Shown here one piece after another: positions 12,726-30,200 of a stretch of 64,000 nt of DNA; position 1 is the first letter of the stretch, and each line of letters begins with the position of its first letter. The position numbers are program-made. Source of the DNA: Octopus vulgaris (lineage: Eukaryota); the NCBI GenBank assembly GCA_951406725.2, contig OX597830.1:16988001-17052000 (forward strand), in the 5' to 3' direction.

Positions 12726-15700
12726 GAGCACTCCGTCGGTTACGATGACGAGGGTCCCAGCTGATACGATCAACGGAACAGCCTGCTCGTGAAATTAGCG
12801 TGCAAGTGACTGAGCAATCCACAGACACGTGTACCCCTAACATAGTTCTCAGGGTGATTCAGTATGACATGGCCGGCCCTTTGAAAACTCATTTTTGCCA
12901 GCTGAGTGGACTGGAGCAACGTTAAATAAAGTGTCTTGCTCACGGTCACAACGCGTCGCCAGGAATTGAACTCACGACCTTACAATCGTGAGCCAAATGC
13001 CCTAACAACTAAGCTACGTACAACGATTTAGAATTTCCTTTTTGTTGCATATATGATATATATTATTCATACACAAAATATGGGTATCGTTAGTAAACAT
13101 TGAAAAGCGTTGCCCTTGTGTGTATATGCTTACACACAATCACCAAAAATATGGAAAAAAAAGGAGAAAAATTCATTATATTCATGCAGCTTATTTTGAA
13201 AGTTCTTCGAAACCATTTTATCTTTTCAATGGTTAGAAAAGAGGACAAAAAGTTTCAGTCATATGCAAATGAGTGTGCTCACAGACCCCGACGATTTGTT
13301 TCCTCATAACTTTCACAAAAATCGATATTTTCCAATGAAATTTTTCTACAGATATTGTTCAGTCTGTCTAGATACCGATTATATCGGAAATTGTTGTTAA
13401 AATGTTTTCACAGTGGGATGAGGGAGAGAATTTTCGGATAATTCATAATAATCTATTTGTTTCCTCATAACTTTCAGAAAAATAGGTTTTTATTACTGAA
13501 TTTCTTTTACAAATACCTCTCAGATTATATCGGAGTTTAATGTGAAAAAAAAAATTAATTAATATATGGTGGGCGCGCATATATACATACTAACATACAT
13601 CACAATTAGATCTACAAAAGGAAAGTTGAAATTTTGAAAAAATTGTGATGCGCCCACCAGTTTCACTCTTTTCTTTTTCTTTTCTTTTTTTCCACATTAA
13701 ATTTCAATATAATCGTTATCTACACTATGTGAAATGTATTTGTAGAAAATTTTAATTAAAAGTGCCAATTTTTCTGAAAGTTTTTAAGAAAAAATAACAT
13801 TGGTTCGTGGGAAATATCCGAAACTTCCCCTCCATCATCTCCCACCGAAATTTTCCTCTTTTTTTTTTTCATCCTTAAATCCTTAAAAATGTTTTAGCCC
13901 GAAGGCTGCGGCCATGCTGGGGCATTCGTAATCTACACGATCTGAAACGTAATTGTAAAAAGTTTTCATTAAAGACTATCCATTTTTCTGAATGCCATGG
14001 GGAAGGTACACTTATGTTAAGTATACTTTAGTTGGGTAACACCTGCGATTCCTCCTTTTGACAAATACTCGACGGAGATCTAGGGCCAATTTTTCTGAAA
14101 TTTTTTAAGAAATAACATTGGTTCATGTGAAATATCCGAAACACCTCCTCTATCATCTCCCACCAAAATTTTCCTAATTTTTTTTTCATACTAAATTCTG
14201 ACATGATCGTAATATACGCCATCTAAAACGTAACTGTAGAAAGTTTTCATTAAAGAATATCCATTTTTCTGAATGCCATGGGGAAGGCACACTTATGTAG
14301 GTATACTTTAATTGGGTAACACCTGCGATTCCTCCTTTTGACAAACACTCGACGGAGATCCATTCACTATTTAATGGGGGTTTTTTCTAGCAGTTGTCTC
14401 CCTTTAGTGTCTGAAATGGCGTCAAAGCGGCAAAAGTTGAAACTTTCAAAACGATCTTCGACCTCGGACTGTAATGACTCAAAACTCGACAGCAGTTCGT
14501 CTACGAAGGATAAAAGCTTTAATGATACTTCATGTAAGAATGATGGCAACAGGTATAATGATTTCCTTCAACTCTCATAAAGTTATTCATGAAGTTAATG
14601 CCTTTTACGTTCGTTTTCCTTTTAACAAAACAAATTCTTTAAAACATTTGTTGATGACAGCCACTGGAATGGTTCGTGCACCAGACAACATGCTTGGCGG
14701 TATTTCTTCCTGCTTTACGTTTTAAGTTCAAATGCCGCCGAGGTCGACTTTGCCTTTATTTTATTTTTTTGTTTTTCAGGGTCGATAAAATAAGTTCCAG
14801 CCAAGTTCTGGGGTCGATGTAATAGACAACCCATCCCCGCCCACCTCGTAACTGCTGTCCTTTTGCCAAAATTTGAAATCGTTATTACGAAAATTAAGAA
14901 GGTCGAAAAACAAAGGAATAAAATTTTGAAAATGTTTGTTCAGTTTTTAACGTCAGGCCAGCTCTCATTGAGCATACGTATGATCGATCAAAGACGTTCC
15001 AGTCATGCCCAGTCCATTTTTTCCCCTGGTCTACGTTGCTGAATATGTTCTTTTTTTTTTTTTTTTTGCGATCCTTCGGTATAAGTACCGTAAGTGGCTT
15101 TGTTTACATTTCTGAAGATTAACAGAAACCCTTTTCTCCCACCCTTAACCGTAACCCTAACCCTAACCCCCCATATATATATATTAAAAAAAAACACTTT
15201 CTTGAAATGTATCCGGTACATATACCGAAGTTACGCCTTTTTTTTAATGGTAGGATGTGAACTAAGGGGCATTTAGCTGCTACATCTAGCAGGTGGAGCG
15301 ACCACGAAGGGACCCCCGACATAGTGTTGAGTAAAAGGCAAGCTTCCTACGTTGAAGTCGGTTCTTGTGCCGATAAATACCCAGGAAAATTTTAAACGTT
15401 GCACCCGTTCAATTTTCCTTTGTAAATATATATATATTTATAGTTGTTAATCTCATAACCCTCTTAGATATTTAGAACCCTACTGAAGATTTTGTTTTCT
15501 TAAACTAATTCATGGCGAAAATAGATTTCACCCTCACCGTCTCATATAAAGGGGAATAACTCTGGAATATCTAAGTTATGCTCTATAAAAAGTAATGATT
15601 TCCCCCACTTTACGGTTGTCTCAGGTTACGGAATTTCCCTCAGGGAAATTGTAACGTATGGCTAATAAATTCGAAATATGGTTATGTAATTTCACTCTTG

Positions 15701-27200: not shown

Positions 27201-30200
27201 GCATATTACATGCCACCAGCATAGGAGCCAGGTGGGGGCACTGGCATCGATCACATTCGCATAGTCTTTTTACATGCCACCGGCATGGGGAGCCAGTTAG
27301 GCGACACTGGCATCGACCCATGCTCAAATGGTGCTTATTACATGCCACCAGCATAGGAGCCAGGTGGGGGCACTGGCATCGATCACATTCGCATAGTCTT
27401 TTTACATGCCACCGGCATGGAGAGCCAGTTAGGCGACACTGGCATTGACCCATGCTCAAATGGTGCTTATTACATGCCACCAGCATGGGTGTGAATCAGG
27501 CAGCACTGGCCAGTTTAATAATTAATTAGTTGCAATAAAGTGCATTTAAAATAACTAATTGAATAAAATTCATGTCTCTCTTTATCATTTAACAAACTGG
27601 ACTCTGTTGGTTATGACAAGGTTTCCAGCTGATCCAGTCAATGGAACAGCCTGCTTGTGAAATTAACGAACAAGTGGCTGACCACTCCACAGACACACAT
27701 ACTCTTAATGTAGGTCGTAGGGAGATTTAACATGATGCAGAATGTGACAAGGCCAGCCCTTTGAATTACAGGTACAACTCATATTTGCCAGCTGAGTGGT
27801 CTGGGGTAATGTGGAATAAAGTGTCTTGCTCAAGGACACAACATGCTACCAGGAATCAAACCCATGAACTTACAATTGTGAGCTGAGTATCCTAACCTCT
27901 AAGCCATGTAAATGTATGCTATATATGGACTATTAAAATTGTAACATAGATTTCTATTCTGTGTCCAGCTAACAAAATGATCTGTCCGTCAGTGTTTCTA
28001 GAAATACTGAAAGTATCACAGCAGCTAATTGCCTTTGATACATACATCAGGAGGATGGACAAACATAGATGAGATATACTGTCAATTATATTAGTAGATA
28101 AGAAGCAATCCAAAATGTTTTGTATTGTCAGTATTTGTTTCATCTACATTTTACTTCCTGTTTTATCTTGATATTATTTTTTTTTCCAGGATGACCCTGA
28201 GAGCAAGAAGTACACACATAGAAGTTTGTCTTGACACTGCAAGTAGTGATATTTGGGAAGATGATTCATAAGTCACAACTAGTGAAACCATCAACTAGAT
28301 ATTCCGAACAAAGGAAGGTTTGTTCAGTAATTTTAGGCCACAGCAGCAGATAGTGAAGATAAATATCAATGACAATCACTGATTCTTTGCAGCCTCTGTT
28401 TCACCCTATCTATATACATCTGCATACATCATCTTCATCATCGTTTAACGTCCGCTTTCCATGCTAGCATGGGTTGGACGATTTTGACTGAGGGCTGGCG
28501 AACCAGATGGCTGCACCAGGCTCCAATCTTGATTTTGGCAGAGTTTCTACAGCTGGATGCCCTTCCTAACGCCAACCACTCCGAGAGTGTAGTGGGTGCT
28601 TTTTATGTGCCACCGGCACGGGGGCCAGTCAGGCGGTACTGGCAACGACCTTGCTCGCATCTTTTTACACATGCCACCAGCACAGCTGCCAGTAAGGCGA
28701 TGTTGGTAACGATCCTGCTCAAATGGTGCTCTTTTACGTGCCACCAGCATGGAAGCCAAGATGGTCCAACAATTATCTTCAGTTTGGGGGAGTTATCATC
28801 ACTATGTTAGAGGTCACCCTAAAACTGCACACTGAAACTGTTACCATTCTCTCTCTAGATTGCTCATTTCTCAAATGTAAAAGCTGAATTGAGATTATTG
28901 CTGCAATTTAACCTCATAGTTATAGATTTATGGAGCTGGTATCACTTACCTTAATTTGTTGTAGAGCCATCACTATGAAACTCCATTCCATTCCAAGCTA
29001 AGGAAATTACACTACATTGGATTACGTACTGTAATCATGGCTCAAATTCAGAGTTGTTGCAGTTATTCCCATACTTGAGACAAGCAAGCAAGACAACAGT
29101 AGATATTACCAAACTAACCACCCCTCCTAATTTATTTGGAATTGACTGTAAAATGCCATAAGCAAACAAAAAACATCACTCAGGTTGTGTGGATCAAACT
29201 TGGCCCTTCTTTTTTCCTTGCAACAACAGACTATAATGCATTGTGCTAATTCAAGACTGTCCACTGTTGATTCTAATTAAAATTTTTGACATTATTGGAA
29301 CATTCAAAACCAATAGCTCTTTGGTTGTTATTTTCTATATGTTGTAAATATCATTCATCTTAAACGATAACTTTTTTCTTCAAGGATTTTGTATCGGGGC
29401 ACTCTTTGTTTGGTAATAGATTTCTTTGGCTTTCTGACTCTGAAATGTTCCTTATAGAAAATATATAAAGTCATTGAAAAAATAATAGGTTTAAAAATTT
29501 TTTTTTTTTAAAGTTAAATGTATCAGGGGACTTAAGTATATATTTGATATTTAAGCTACCGCCAACTAGTGGGTACTGGTAGAATATCCATGGATGTTAA
29601 ATAATCATTTTTATAGATATGATTACTTGTTGCAAACTACATTCATTCACTAGTTTAACATCCATTTTTTCCATGCTGGCACAAGTTTGACTTGAATAAA
29701 ATGTTCTCCTTTTATATATCATCATTTAACGTCCACTTTCCATGAACTGGACAGCTTCACTGGAGCTGGCAAGTCAGAGAGCTGCACCAGGCCCAATCTG
29801 ATCTGGCAGTGTTTCCACAGCTGGATGCCCTTCCTAACGCCAACCACTCCATGAGTGTAGTGGGTGCTTTTTACGTGCCACCGACACAGGTGCCAGGCGA
29901 GGCTGGCAATGGCCATGTTCGGATGGTTCTTTTACATTCCACCGGCACTGGTATCACAACTACAATTTCCATTGATATCCCTCTCTCTCTTTCGGAGAGG
30001 CACAAGCACCTACACGCACATATACACACACGGCAGTAACTTCCACCTACCGAATTCAATCACAAAGCTCCGGTCATATATATATAAACTATTTACAGGT
30101 TATATATGCGTGAACAGTTAAACTTTTGTACATAACTACTCAGTAGTCAGCTAAGTTATTCATTAGTATTTCCAAGTACCATAGGTCAACTAACTAAACA

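What the first reader, a model, noticed from the sequence alone, without database searches (positions are those of the whole stretch)
14416..28271. Hidden five-exon FAAP20 orthologue in a cephalopod-type genome
Seen: five short exons splice with compatible phases (2,0,1,2) into a 276-aa ORF. Known (recalled human sequence): FAAP20 has a basic N-terminus, PSLPAFP, WTPFP, and a C-terminal UBZ CPMCQKEF...HLAQCL...DVTW. This protein shows the same motifs in the same order: MASKRQKLKLSKR, PQFSKFP, WTPFP, CPICQEVF...HIEVCL...DIW. Early reports described FAAP20 as vertebrate-restricted. Inference: a lophotrochozoan orthologue would place the FANCA-FANCG-FAAP20 module in the bilaterian ancestor. Automated pipelines may list this gene as uncharacterised, or may already have noticed it.
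Basis: partly seen in the sequence, partly recalled or inferred. Interest (0 to 1): 0.8.

Follow-up and report, generated by a model that had tools for sequence, protein, structure and literature searches.

The report
Octopus gene resembling Fanconi protein FAAP20
This is a real five-exon octopus gene, already listed in databases as "uncharacterised", whose zinc-finger tail matches that of the DNA-repair protein FAAP20, though whether the rest of the protein works like FAAP20 is not shown.

Summary
There are five exons: 14416-14552, 17703-17817, 21083-21329, 25228-25477 and 28190-28271. All introns are GT..AG with phases 2,0,1,2, giving 276 codons plus a stop. The five exon peptides are letter-identical to Octopus vulgaris CAI9735001.1 ("Hypothetical predicted protein"). 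The same 276-aa model exists in O. sinensis, and a 274-aa model in O. bimaculoides. So the gene is not hidden, only unnamed.

The FAAP20 reading is partly supported. The C-terminal zinc finger is the FAAP20 type:
- The best solved-structure hit is the human FAAP20 UBZ (E 0.0016; family profile 6.8e-10, against TAX1BP1 at 6.4e-5).
- Three full-length relatives pass Pfam UBZ_FAAP20 at 44.7-50.2 bits (cut-off 25).
- The top protein-atlas clusters are FAAP20.

The octopus finger itself scores below the cut-off (17.9 bits). It carries Ser and Glu where human FAAP20 has Asp164 and Ala168, both essential for binding ubiquitin.

The N-terminal FANCA-binding region was never detected. The human N-terminal motifs remain recalled, not verified. 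FANCA and FANCG in octopus, transcripts and intron homology stayed unchecked.

Verdict: probably an unnamed cephalopod FAAP20 family member, of modest interest.

The parts
14416..14552 (+). Exon 1 (start codon to donor; residues 1-45 plus 2 nt). Encodes the basic N-terminus MASKRQKLKLSKR (14416-14454) and a Ser/Asp-rich disordered stretch.
   Evidence: 45/45 identical to O. vulgaris CAI9735001.1. M1 A2 K4 R5 L8 K9 L10 K12 R13 are invariant in 5 of 5 family members.
17703..17817 (+). Exon 2 (residues 46-84). Encodes a predicted helix (residues 54-70, 17725-17775) and the PQFSKFP motif (17788-17808).
   Evidence: 38/38 identical to P0012. AlphaFold2 helix H54-70 with block pLDDT 63-72. L61, F80 and P81 are invariant.
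21083..21329 (+). Exon 3 (residues 85-166 plus 1 nt). Encodes WTPFP (21137-21151) followed by C-x2-C-A-T.
   Evidence: 82/82 identical to P0012. W103, P105, F106, P107, C110, C113, A114 and T115 are invariant in 5 of 5 members. Its frame is the longest open stretch of the gene, 144 codons from stop to stop.
25228..25477 (+). Exon 4 (residues 167-249 plus 2 nt). Encodes the SPDLF and TLFP motifs and the first half of the zinc finger (C240-x2-C243, from about 25434).
   Evidence: 82/82 identical to P0012. The exon alone gives weak Pfam hits to Zn-C2H2_12 (E 0.018) and UBZ_FAAP20 (E 0.032) over its last 12 residues.
28190..28271 (+). Exon 5 (residues 250-276 and TAA). Encodes the second half of the zinc finger (helix with H259 and C263, Trp272 at 28254-28256) and the tail EDDS.
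   Evidence: 26/26 identical to P0012. In the deposited proteins the join restores the C-x2-C-x15-H-x3-C spacing seen in the human FAAP20 UBZ (alignment). This is the least conserved exon against O. bimaculoides: 19/26, against 214/238 for the other four exons.
28272..29700 (+). Presumed 3' untranslated region, extent unknown. It holds a repeat-like stretch at about 28590-28760 and poly(A)-signal-like hexamers at 29276 (ATTAAA) and 29695 (AATAAA).
   Evidence: Inference only; no transcript data were available.

Best explanation
The locus is a genuine, intact five-exon protein-coding gene of an Octopus vulgaris-type genome. It encodes a 276-residue, mostly disordered protein with four features:
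- a basic N-terminus;
- one short helix;
- a few short invariant motifs (F-P, W-x-P-F-P-x2-C-x2-C-A-T, S-P-D-L-F, L-F-P);
- a CCHC ubiquitin-binding-type zinc finger at the C-terminus.

It is most likely the cephalopod member of the FAAP20 family. FAAP20 is the small subunit of the FANCA-FANCG-FAAP20 module of the Fanconi anaemia core complex. By analogy with vertebrate FAAP20, the conserved N-terminal motifs would dock on and stabilise FANCA. This step is inferred, not shown. The C-terminal finger would read ubiquitin at damaged chromatin.

In the genus Octopus the finger keeps its four zinc ligands, the Leu after the last Cys, the Asp in the tail and the Trp. But it has Ser (Asn in O. bimaculoides) and Glu where human FAAP20 has Asp164 and Ala168. 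I therefore expect canonical ubiquitin binding to be weakened or lost there. The more conservative relatives P0008 and P0015 keep Asp, Ala and Leu and end in Trp.

Shown: the gene model, the family, and the FAAP20-type finger. Inferred: FANCA binding, the role in crosslink repair, and the change in ubiquitin binding.
For: Gene reality:
- Splice sites and phases are as claimed.
- The exon peptides are identical to the deposited O. vulgaris protein.
- Deposited models exist in O. sinensis and O. bimaculoides, plus a partial model in Argonauta hians.
- A scan of 1.84 billion representatives gave 6 proteins at E<=0.001: the query itself, three real relatives (P0007 at 3.1e-28, P0008 at 4.8e-12 over residues 1-271, P0009 at 8.9e-12), and two repeat proteins that I discount.
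- P0008 is a complete 273-aa protein on a 1030-base contig. That contig has no room for introns, which suggests a transcript.

Finger type:
- phmmer of P0006 against the PDB ranks the human FAAP20 UBZ first (3wwq_C, E 0.0016) and second (2muq_A, 0.0025). TAX1BP1 follows at 0.26-0.34 and SLX4 at 1.4.
- The four-sequence family profile gives 6.8e-10 and 8.6e-10 for FAAP20, against 6.4e-5 for TAX1BP1.
- Pfam UBZ_FAAP20 scores 44.7, 50.2 and 49.9 bits (cut-off 25) in P0008, P0009 and P0015. Zn-C2H2_12 scores 25.2, 19.0 and 18.6 in the same proteins.
- The top atlas clusters by features are FAAP20 (0.95, 0.94, 0.94; 208, 204 and 197 of 256 features shared).
- The AlphaFold2 model has block pLDDT 88-89 over the finger. 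The four best Foldseek PDB matches are FAAP20 UBZ chains (prob 0.84-0.97, target TM 0.64-0.76).
- Zinc-ligand spacing and the Trp correspond to the human residues described in PMC4370504 and PMC4267625 (passages).

Architecture: notothenioid fish FAAP20 is 251-255 aa, from 4 or 5 exons over 10-12 kb (PMC11575085, figure legend). That is similar in size to this gene (276 aa, 5 exons, 13.9 kb).
Against: - The N-terminal FANCA-interaction family PF15751 was found in 0 of the 5 exon peptides, not in P0006, in 0 of 5 relatives and in 0 of 2 N-terminal stretches.
- The atlas search on residues 1-230 gave no usable hit.
- Exon-wise PDB searches (exons 2, 3, 4 and 5) found no FAAP20 chain.
- On its own, the octopus finger is below the Pfam cut-off: 17.9 bits in P0006 and 15.4 in P0013 (cut-off 25). 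It ties with Zn-C2H2_12 at 18.1 bits.
- Two of the three D-A-L ubiquitin contacts are not kept in Octopus.
- The atlas output itself warns that only 5 of the ten best named hits share the top family. It calls five or fewer a sign that the family is probably wrong.
- Foldseek E-values are 0.45-1.0, with 0 of 15 matches at E<=0.001. The model's mean pLDDT is only 50.6.
- No vertebrate FAAP20 sequence came into the session: searches returned only the family itself. So no direct alignment or profile-profile test of the N-terminus was possible.
- No SKI-like neighbour was seen, whereas FAAP20 lies next to SKI in fish. The neighbour here is SH3BP5-like. Only 47 of the 131 open frames of at least 75 codons were scanned.
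Confidence: 0.62

Rival explanations
1. Only the domain is shared. This would be a cephalopod-lineage disordered protein that carries a FAAP20-like UBZ finger but is not a FANCA partner. It would act as some other ubiquitin-linked or zinc-finger adaptor.
For: All significant similarity to FAAP20 lies in the last 40 or so residues. No N-terminal match was found by Pfam or by the atlas without the finger. The family has features of its own, such as the invariant C-x2-C-A-T and S-P-D-L-F.
Against: The Pfam FANCA_interact model also misses many chordate FAAP20 proteins: only 69%, 77% and 14% of members of the three top atlas clusters carry it. A miss is therefore weak evidence. Size, disorder, a single finger at the very C-terminus and the Trp after it all fit FAAP20.
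Confidence: 0.28
2. A relative of the autophagy-receptor type of zinc finger (TAX1BP1/NDP52-like, Pfam Zn-C2H2_12) rather than of FAAP20.
For: Exon 4 alone scores slightly better on Zn-C2H2_12 (E 0.018) than on UBZ_FAAP20 (E 0.032). P0006 scores 18.1 against 17.9 bits. P0008 just passes the Zn-C2H2_12 cut-off (25.2 against 23.2).
Against: In the three relatives UBZ_FAAP20 wins by about 20-31 bits. In the PDB, FAAP20 beats TAX1BP1 by two orders of magnitude for P0006 and by five for the family profile. The Zn-C2H2_12 matches cover only the first 14-23 of 27 profile positions. No SKICH or other autophagy-receptor domain was found.
Confidence: 0.05
3. A gene-prediction artefact or decaying pseudogene: open frames and splice-like sites that the pipelines joined without the product being made.
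For: No transcript data for this species were seen. The deposited names are "hypothetical predicted" or "uncharacterized". Exon 5 diverges faster than the rest: 19/26 against 214/238 identities to O. bimaculoides, Fisher p = 0.02.
Against: The frame is intact in three Octopus species. Full-length relatives at 28-41% identity keep short motifs and align without gaps across all junctions. One relative is complete on a 1030-base contig, with no room for introns. All four introns have GT..AG boundaries.
Confidence: 0.03

Closest known systems
Vertebrate FAAP20 (Fanconi anaemia core complex-associated protein 20; human UBZ solved as 3WWQ, 2MUQ/2MUR)
   Same: A small, largely disordered protein with a single CCHC finger at the extreme C-terminus. 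The C-x2-C-x15-H-x3-C spacing is identical. Leu follows the last Cys, and an acidic tail carries a Trp. It is the best hit in the PDB, in Pfam (for the relatives), in the atlas and in Foldseek rank order. Length and exon number are similar to fish FAAP20.
   Different: Octopus has Ser/Asn and Glu at the positions of Asp164 and Ala168. The Trp lies one residue closer to the Asp and is followed by EDDS instead of ending the protein. The FANCA-interaction region is not detectable by Pfam. The family has its own C-x2-C-A-T and S-P-D-L-F motifs. Binding to FANCA is untested.
TAX1BP1 / NDP52-type UBZ fingers (Pfam Zn-C2H2_12; 5AAS, 2M7Q, 4BMJ, 5YT6)
   Same: The C-P-x-C-x3-F-P knuckle and a helix bearing His are shared. 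These are the second-best hits in every search.
   Different: Scores are far lower for the family (26 against 42 bits; 19-25 against 45-50 bits). Those proteins are long SKICH and coiled-coil receptors with tandem fingers ending in His. None of that is present here.
DNA polymerase eta UBZ
   Same: According to PMC4370504 (passage), it uses the same helix-based way of binding ubiquitin as FAAP20, with Asp-x3-Ala-x2-Leu.
   Different: It was not recovered by any sequence search here. It sits inside a large polymerase. A DNA polymerase kappa-like cluster appeared only as a TM 0.21 structure row.

Membership tests
FAAP20 | C-terminal UBZ with zinc ligands Cys-x2-Cys-x15-His-x3-Cys (human C147, C150, H166, C170) | tested here: met
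   The alignment of P0006 to 3wwq_C places C240, C243, H259 and C263 on the human ligands without a gap. The ligands are described in PMC4370504 and PMC4267625. The window's exons 4 and 5 carry the same letters.
FAAP20 | Pfam PF15750 UBZ_FAAP20 at or above the gathering score (25 bits), in the octopus protein itself | tested here: not met
   P0006 scores 17.9 bits (E 0.0027) and P0013 scores 15.4 bits. Exon 4 alone scores 14.5 bits, and exon 5 alone gives no hit.
FAAP20 | Pfam PF15750 UBZ_FAAP20 at or above the gathering score, in full-length relatives of the octopus protein | tested here: met
   P0008 scores 44.7, P0009 scores 50.2 and P0015 scores 49.9 bits. These are relatives of P0006 at E 4.8e-12 and 8.9e-12 over nearly the whole length. 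The partial Argonauta protein lacks the region.
FAAP20 | Ubiquitin-contact D(-4)-A(0)-L(+3) motif on the UBZ helix (D164, A168, L171). D164A and A168L/Y abolish binding. | tested here: not met
   Octopus has S257, E261 and L264. O. bimaculoides has N, E and L. P0008 and P0015 have D, A and L. Mutant data come from PMC4370504 and PMC4267625.
FAAP20 | Conserved Trp at the very C-terminus (W180), preceded by an acidic residue (D177) | tested here: inconclusive
   D270 and W272 are present. However, the Trp is one residue closer to the Asp than in human and is followed by EDDS. P0008 and P0015 end in Trp.
FAAP20 | N-terminal FANCA-interaction region (Pfam PF15751 FANCA_interact) | tested here: not met
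   No hit at E<=10 in 5 exon peptides, in P0006, in 5 relatives or in 2 N-terminal stretches. Atlas residues 1-230 gave no usable hit. Caveat: only 14-77% of members of the chordate FAAP20 clusters carry this family.
FAAP20 | Physical binding to FANCA and stabilisation of it; FANCA and FANCG present in the same genome | not testable with these tools
FANCA also exceeds the size limit of the complex predictor.
FAAP20 | Intron positions and phases shared with vertebrate FAAP20, notably an intron inside the UBZ | not tested
   No vertebrate gene structure was available. PMC11575085 gives only the exon number (4 or 5). PMC4267625 notes that only 2 of 8 human isoforms keep an intact UBZ. That fits a junction near the finger but does not show one.
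FAAP20 | Conserved neighbourhood (next to SKI in fish) | tested here: inconclusive
   47 of the 131 open frames of at least 75 codons were scanned with Pfam. They gave SH3BP5, reverse-transcriptase, endonuclease and Helitron pieces, and no SKI. Synteny over this evolutionary distance is not expected to be kept.
Autophagy-receptor zinc finger (Pfam Zn-C2H2_12, TAX1BP1/NDP52) | Zn-C2H2_12 as the best-scoring finger family, with SKICH and coiled-coil architecture | tested here: not met
   Zn-C2H2_12 scores 18.1 bits in P0006 (below the 23.2 cut-off). It scores 25.2, 19.0 and 18.6 bits in the relatives, against 44.7-50.2 bits for UBZ_FAAP20. No SKICH domain was found.

The most novel reading that the evidence does not exclude
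Cephalopods have a true FAAP20 orthologue, so the small FANCA-stabilising subunit dates back at least to the bilaterian ancestor. Within the genus Octopus its finger has given up canonical ubiquitin reading (Asp to Ser/Asn, Ala to Glu, and a faster-evolving last exon) while keeping its zinc site and the FANCA-docking N-terminus. That would be a natural separation-of-function variant. It would show that FANCA stabilisation, not ubiquitin-guided recruitment, is the conserved core job of FAAP20. The family's invariant C-x2-C-A-T after W-x-P-F-P might be a second, partner-completed metal site.
Probability: 0.25. Interest if true: 0.55.

Novelty: new member of a known kind. Interest (0 to 1): 0.35.

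Why it matters
If the orthology holds, three Octopus database entries now called "uncharacterised" or "hypothetical" can be named. FAAP20 would no longer be known only from chordates: all FAAP20 clusters are chordate, and the papers I could read treat the full core complex as a vertebrate feature (PMC4543658). The gain is incremental, because other core subunits are already reported far outside vertebrates. FANCA is reported in early-diverging fungi (PMC11061109), and FANCC in Nematostella and Ciona (PMC10085685). 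The more useful point for the field is the natural Ser/Glu variant of the ubiquitin-contact residues in Octopus, beside relatives that keep Asp/Ala. This pair could be used to ask which FAAP20 function is indispensable.

In the held library I found no paper on FAAP20 outside vertebrates. FAAP20 with "invertebrate" gave 6 papers. FAAP20 with "vertebrates" and "conserved" gave 28. FAAP20 with "phylogenetic" and "metazoan" gave 6. "Fanconi anemia" with "Octopus" gave 8. None was relevant by title, abstract or the passages I read. Stanley et al. 2016 (PMC4898443), which surveys FA genes in invertebrates, is not held and may bear on this, as may supplements, which were closed.

Tried and rejected
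- Exon-by-exon Pfam: only sub-threshold hits, namely Spc29, DUF7892 (E 0.00031, 20.6 bits against cut-off 27), Sulfotransfer_2, CTK3, Zn-C2H2_12 and UBZ_FAAP20. The DUF7892 hit fades in O. bimaculoides (E 0.1) and is absent from P0008, P0009 and P0015. I take it for chance.
- Exon-by-exon PDB searches for exons 2-5: no FAAP20 chain. Hits were adhesin, TIF1-beta and a designed helix at E 0.2-1.5, taken as chance. Exon 1 was not searched against the PDB.
- Word-index homology searches. One search (exon 3, longer proteins) found only the O. sinensis protein. One search (P0006, 405 candidates) found only itself. One search (profile A2, 3423 candidates) found only P0006 and P0008. Neither the other known relatives nor any vertebrate FAAP20 came back, so these blanks say little.
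- Representatives search: P0010 and P0011 (E 1.7e-4 and 3.2e-4, matched in 5 and 9 stretches) are internally repetitive proteins. I dropped them as spurious before building the alignments.
- Atlas search without the finger: no usable hit by features, and the structure rows have TM 0.18-0.26, which is meaningless.
- AlphaFold2 on alignment A2: mean pLDDT 50.6. Only the finger and one helix are confident, so the Foldseek result is used as rank order only.
- Paper search for the motif WTPFP: 5 papers, none about FAAP20.
- One search was badly posed. It asked for any two of six terms, and none of the 20 listed papers contains FAAP20, so it says nothing.
- Papers not held: Leung 2012, Ali 2012, Yan 2012 and Kim 2012, Stanley 2016 and Wang 2021.
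- Rfam and tRNA scans of the window were empty.

Full report
**1. The observation**

The ATG is at 14416 and the exons end at 14552, 17817, 21329 and 25477. Each is followed by GT (GTATAA, GTCACA, GTAAAG, GTAAGT). Exons begin at 17703, 21083, 25228 and 28190, each preceded by AG and a T-rich tract. TAA lies at 28269-28271. Exon lengths are 137, 115, 247, 250 and 82 nt, which gives intron phases 2,0,1,2 and 831 nt in all: 276 codons plus the stop. The introns are 3150, 3265, 3898 and 2712 nt long. The window has no N.

I translated each exon in its own frame (P0001-P0005). The joined step for the window's own model was left out of every search.

**2. Is it a gene?**

Exon 3 alone, searched among longer proteins, returned one protein: a 276-aa "uncharacterized protein LOC115220748" of Octopus sinensis (P0006), 96% identical. 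Its 90% cluster also holds O. vulgaris CAI9735001.1 ("Hypothetical predicted protein", 276 aa, P0012) and O. bimaculoides XP_014772369.1 (274 aa, P0013).

All five exon peptides are 100% identical to P0012. They lie at residues 1-45, 47-84, 85-166, 168-249 and 251-276, so the deposited model uses the same four junctions. The window therefore comes from O. vulgaris or something indistinguishable from it at this locus. The gene is annotated but unnamed.

A filter-only HMMER scan of 1.84 billion representatives with P0006 found 6 proteins at E<=0.001:
- P0006 itself.
- P0007 (E 3.1e-28), a partial protein of Argonauta hians.
- P0008 (273 aa, E 4.8e-12, aligned over 1-271).
- P0009 (229 aa, E 8.9e-12; its cluster mate P0015 is 270 aa). 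P0008 and P0009 come from unnamed assemblies.
- Two internally repetitive proteins, P0010 and P0011, which I dropped as spurious.

P0008 is complete on a contig of 1030 bases. That leaves no room for introns and suggests a transcript.

In the five-sequence alignment A2 the relatives run without gaps across all the junction positions. Thirty-four columns are invariant. They include M-A-x-K-R-x2-L-K-L-x-K-R at the start, L61, F80-P81, W103-x-P-F-P-x2-C-x2-C-A-T, S-P-D-L-F and L-F-P. This is a real gene under selection.

**3. What the protein looks like**

AlphaFold2 on A2 gives a mostly disordered chain with mean pLDDT 50.6. There is one helix at residues 54-70 (block pLDDT 63-72) and a confident C-terminal finger (block pLDDT 88-89, helix 253-267).

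**4. The finger**

*Pfam.* Pfam on P0006 gives UBZ_FAAP20 at 17.9 bits (E 0.0027, below the cut-off of 25). This is level with the TAX1BP1-type Zn-C2H2_12 at 18.1 bits. So the octopus letters alone do not decide. Three other lines do.

*Solved structures.* phmmer against all PDB sequences ranks the human FAAP20 UBZ first and second (E 0.0016 and 0.0025), TAX1BP1 next (0.26 and 0.34) and SLX4 at 1.4. With the family profile A1, FAAP20 reaches 6.8e-10 and TAX1BP1 6.4e-5.

*Relatives.* P0008, P0009 and P0015 pass the UBZ_FAAP20 cut-off with 44.7, 50.2 and 49.9 bits, against 25.2, 19.0 and 18.6 bits for Zn-C2H2_12.

*Protein atlas.* The atlas places P0006 nearest to three chordate FAAP20 clusters (0.95, 0.94 and 0.94, with 208, 204 and 197 of 256 features shared). 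The same output warns that only 5 of the ten best named hits share that family.

*Foldseek.* The four best Foldseek matches in the PDB are FAAP20 UBZ chains, but with E 0.45-1.0 and none of 15 matches at E<=0.001. This counts as rank order only.

I conclude that the finger is of the FAAP20 type by descent through the family, and that the Octopus copy is a divergent one.

**5.

The structural papers (PMC4370504 and PMC4267625; abstracts and passages) define the working parts of the human finger:
- zinc ligands C147, C150, H166 and C170;
- the helix motif D164-A168-L171;
- D177;
- the terminal W180.

D164A, A168L or A168Y, and W180A each abolish ubiquitin binding. D164A, A168L and W180A also abolish recruitment to damage sites.

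In the alignment the octopus residues are C240, C243, H259, C263, S257 (for D164), E261 (for A168), L264, D270 and W272. The Trp sits one residue closer to the Asp and is followed by EDDS. O. bimaculoides has N and E at the first two contact positions. P0008 and P0015 keep D, A and L and end in Trp.

Exon 5 is also the least conserved exon between the window and O. bimaculoides: 19/26 identities against 214/238 for the other four exons, Fisher p = 0.02.

My inference is that Octopus keeps a folded zinc finger but has weakened, lost or altered canonical ubiquitin binding.

**6. The N-terminus**

This is the weak point. [quoted passage not shown] The model matched none of the following:
- the five exon peptides;
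- P0006;
- the five relatives;
- two N-terminal stretches of P0008 and P0009 scanned alone.

The atlas search on residues 1-230 gave no usable hit. No PDB chain other than the UBZ constructs matched the family profile as FAAP20.

Two things soften this. First, the Pfam model is carried by only 69%, 77% and 14% of members of the three chordate FAAP20 clusters, so it is a poor detector even among chordates. Second, no vertebrate FAAP20 sequence reached the session (searches returned only the family), so a direct or profile-profile comparison could not be made.

A paper search for WTPFP found nothing relevant. What I can say from the data is that the W-x-P-F-P block is the most conserved N-terminal feature of the cephalopod family. 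That is what one expects of a docking motif.

**7. Surroundings**

Upstream lie a GT/GA microsatellite (402-781), a Helitron-like fragment (4946-5251, minus strand) and LINE-like endonuclease and reverse-transcriptase pieces (7780-9792, plus strand).

Intron 4 holds a 184-bp duplicated unit (25745-26109) and a 132-bp tandem array (27003-27486). Similar units lie just 3' of the stop (about 28590-28760) and at 61155-61304.

Downstream are another reverse-transcriptase fragment (32283-32837, minus strand) and two exons of an SH3BP5-like gene on the minus strand (45405-46892 and 55297-55575). That gene is convergent with this one.

No Rfam family or tRNA was found. No SKI-like neighbour was seen among the 47 of 131 open frames scanned, whereas fish FAAP20 lies beside SKI (PMC11575085, passages).

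**8. Comparison and novelty**

The closest known protein is vertebrate FAAP20. The finger type, its position, the protein's size and disorder, and the gene's size fit: fish FAAP20 is 251-255 aa, from 4-5 exons over 10-12 kb. These features did not fit or could not be tested:
- the Pfam cut-off for the octopus finger itself;
- the D-A part of the ubiquitin motif;
- the Pfam FANCA-interaction model;
- binding to FANCA, the presence of FANCA and FANCG in the genome, and intron homology.

I therefore call it a probable FAAP20 family member. I put confidence at about 0.6 for orthology with FANCA binding, and higher for finger-level kinship. I class it as a new member of a known kind.

FANCA homologues are reported in early-diverging fungi (PMC11061109, abstract and passages), and FANCC in Nematostella and Ciona (PMC10085685, passages). 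So an old FANCA partner is plausible rather than startling.

In the library searched I found no paper that reports FAAP20 outside vertebrates. Stanley et al. 2016, the four 2012 FAAP20 papers and all supplements could not be read and may bear on this.

**9. Verdict**

The locus is an annotated but unnamed octopus gene for a FAAP20-like protein with a divergent ubiquitin-binding finger. Interest is 0.35. It would rise if the N-terminus proves to dock on FANCA and the Octopus finger proves unable to bind ubiquitin.

Noticed in passing
window 45405-46892 (-) and 55297-55575 (-): Two exons of an SH3BP5-like gene on the minus strand (Pfam SH3BP5, E 1.4e-10 and 1.1e-14), convergent with the FAAP20-like gene. 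The large last exon is open for 495 codons.
   Followed up: partly
window 4946-5251 (-), 7780-8396 (+), 8755-9792 (+), 32283-32837 (-): Remnants of mobile elements: a Helitron_like_N piece (E 4.2e-13), sub-threshold endonuclease pieces, and reverse-transcriptase pieces (RVT_1, E 1e-17 and 3.3e-17). All are broken into separate frames.
   Followed up: partly
window 27003-27486, about 28590-28760, 61155-61304: A 132-bp (66-bp sub-unit) tandem array in intron 4. Units with a similar GGTGCTTTTTAC.TGCCACC.GCA core lie just 3' of the stop codon and near the window's end. It looks like a dispersed octopus repeat, and one copy probably sits in the 3' UTR.
   Followed up: no
window 25745-26109: A 184-bp unit repeated twice (88% matches) inside intron 4.
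   Followed up: no
window 402-781: A long GT/GA-rich microsatellite block that keeps several reading frames open on the minus strand (254-878). It is not coding.
   Followed up: no
window 21137-21175 (exon 3); alignment A2 columns for residues 103-115: W-x-P-F-P-x2-C-x2-C-A-T is invariant in all five family members. There are only two invariant Cys and no further invariant ligand nearby, so its role (a partner-completed metal site?) is unexplained.
   Followed up: no
window 28190-28271 (exon 5): This is the least conserved exon against O. bimaculoides (19/26 against 214/238 identities, p = 0.02). That fits relaxed constraint on the ubiquitin-binding helix in Octopus.
   Followed up: partly
window 21158-21298 (exon 3, residues 26-72 of the exon peptide): A sub-threshold Pfam hit to DUF7892 (E 0.00031, 20.6 bits against cut-off 27). 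It is weaker in O. bimaculoides and absent in the distant relatives, so it is probably chance.
   Followed up: partly
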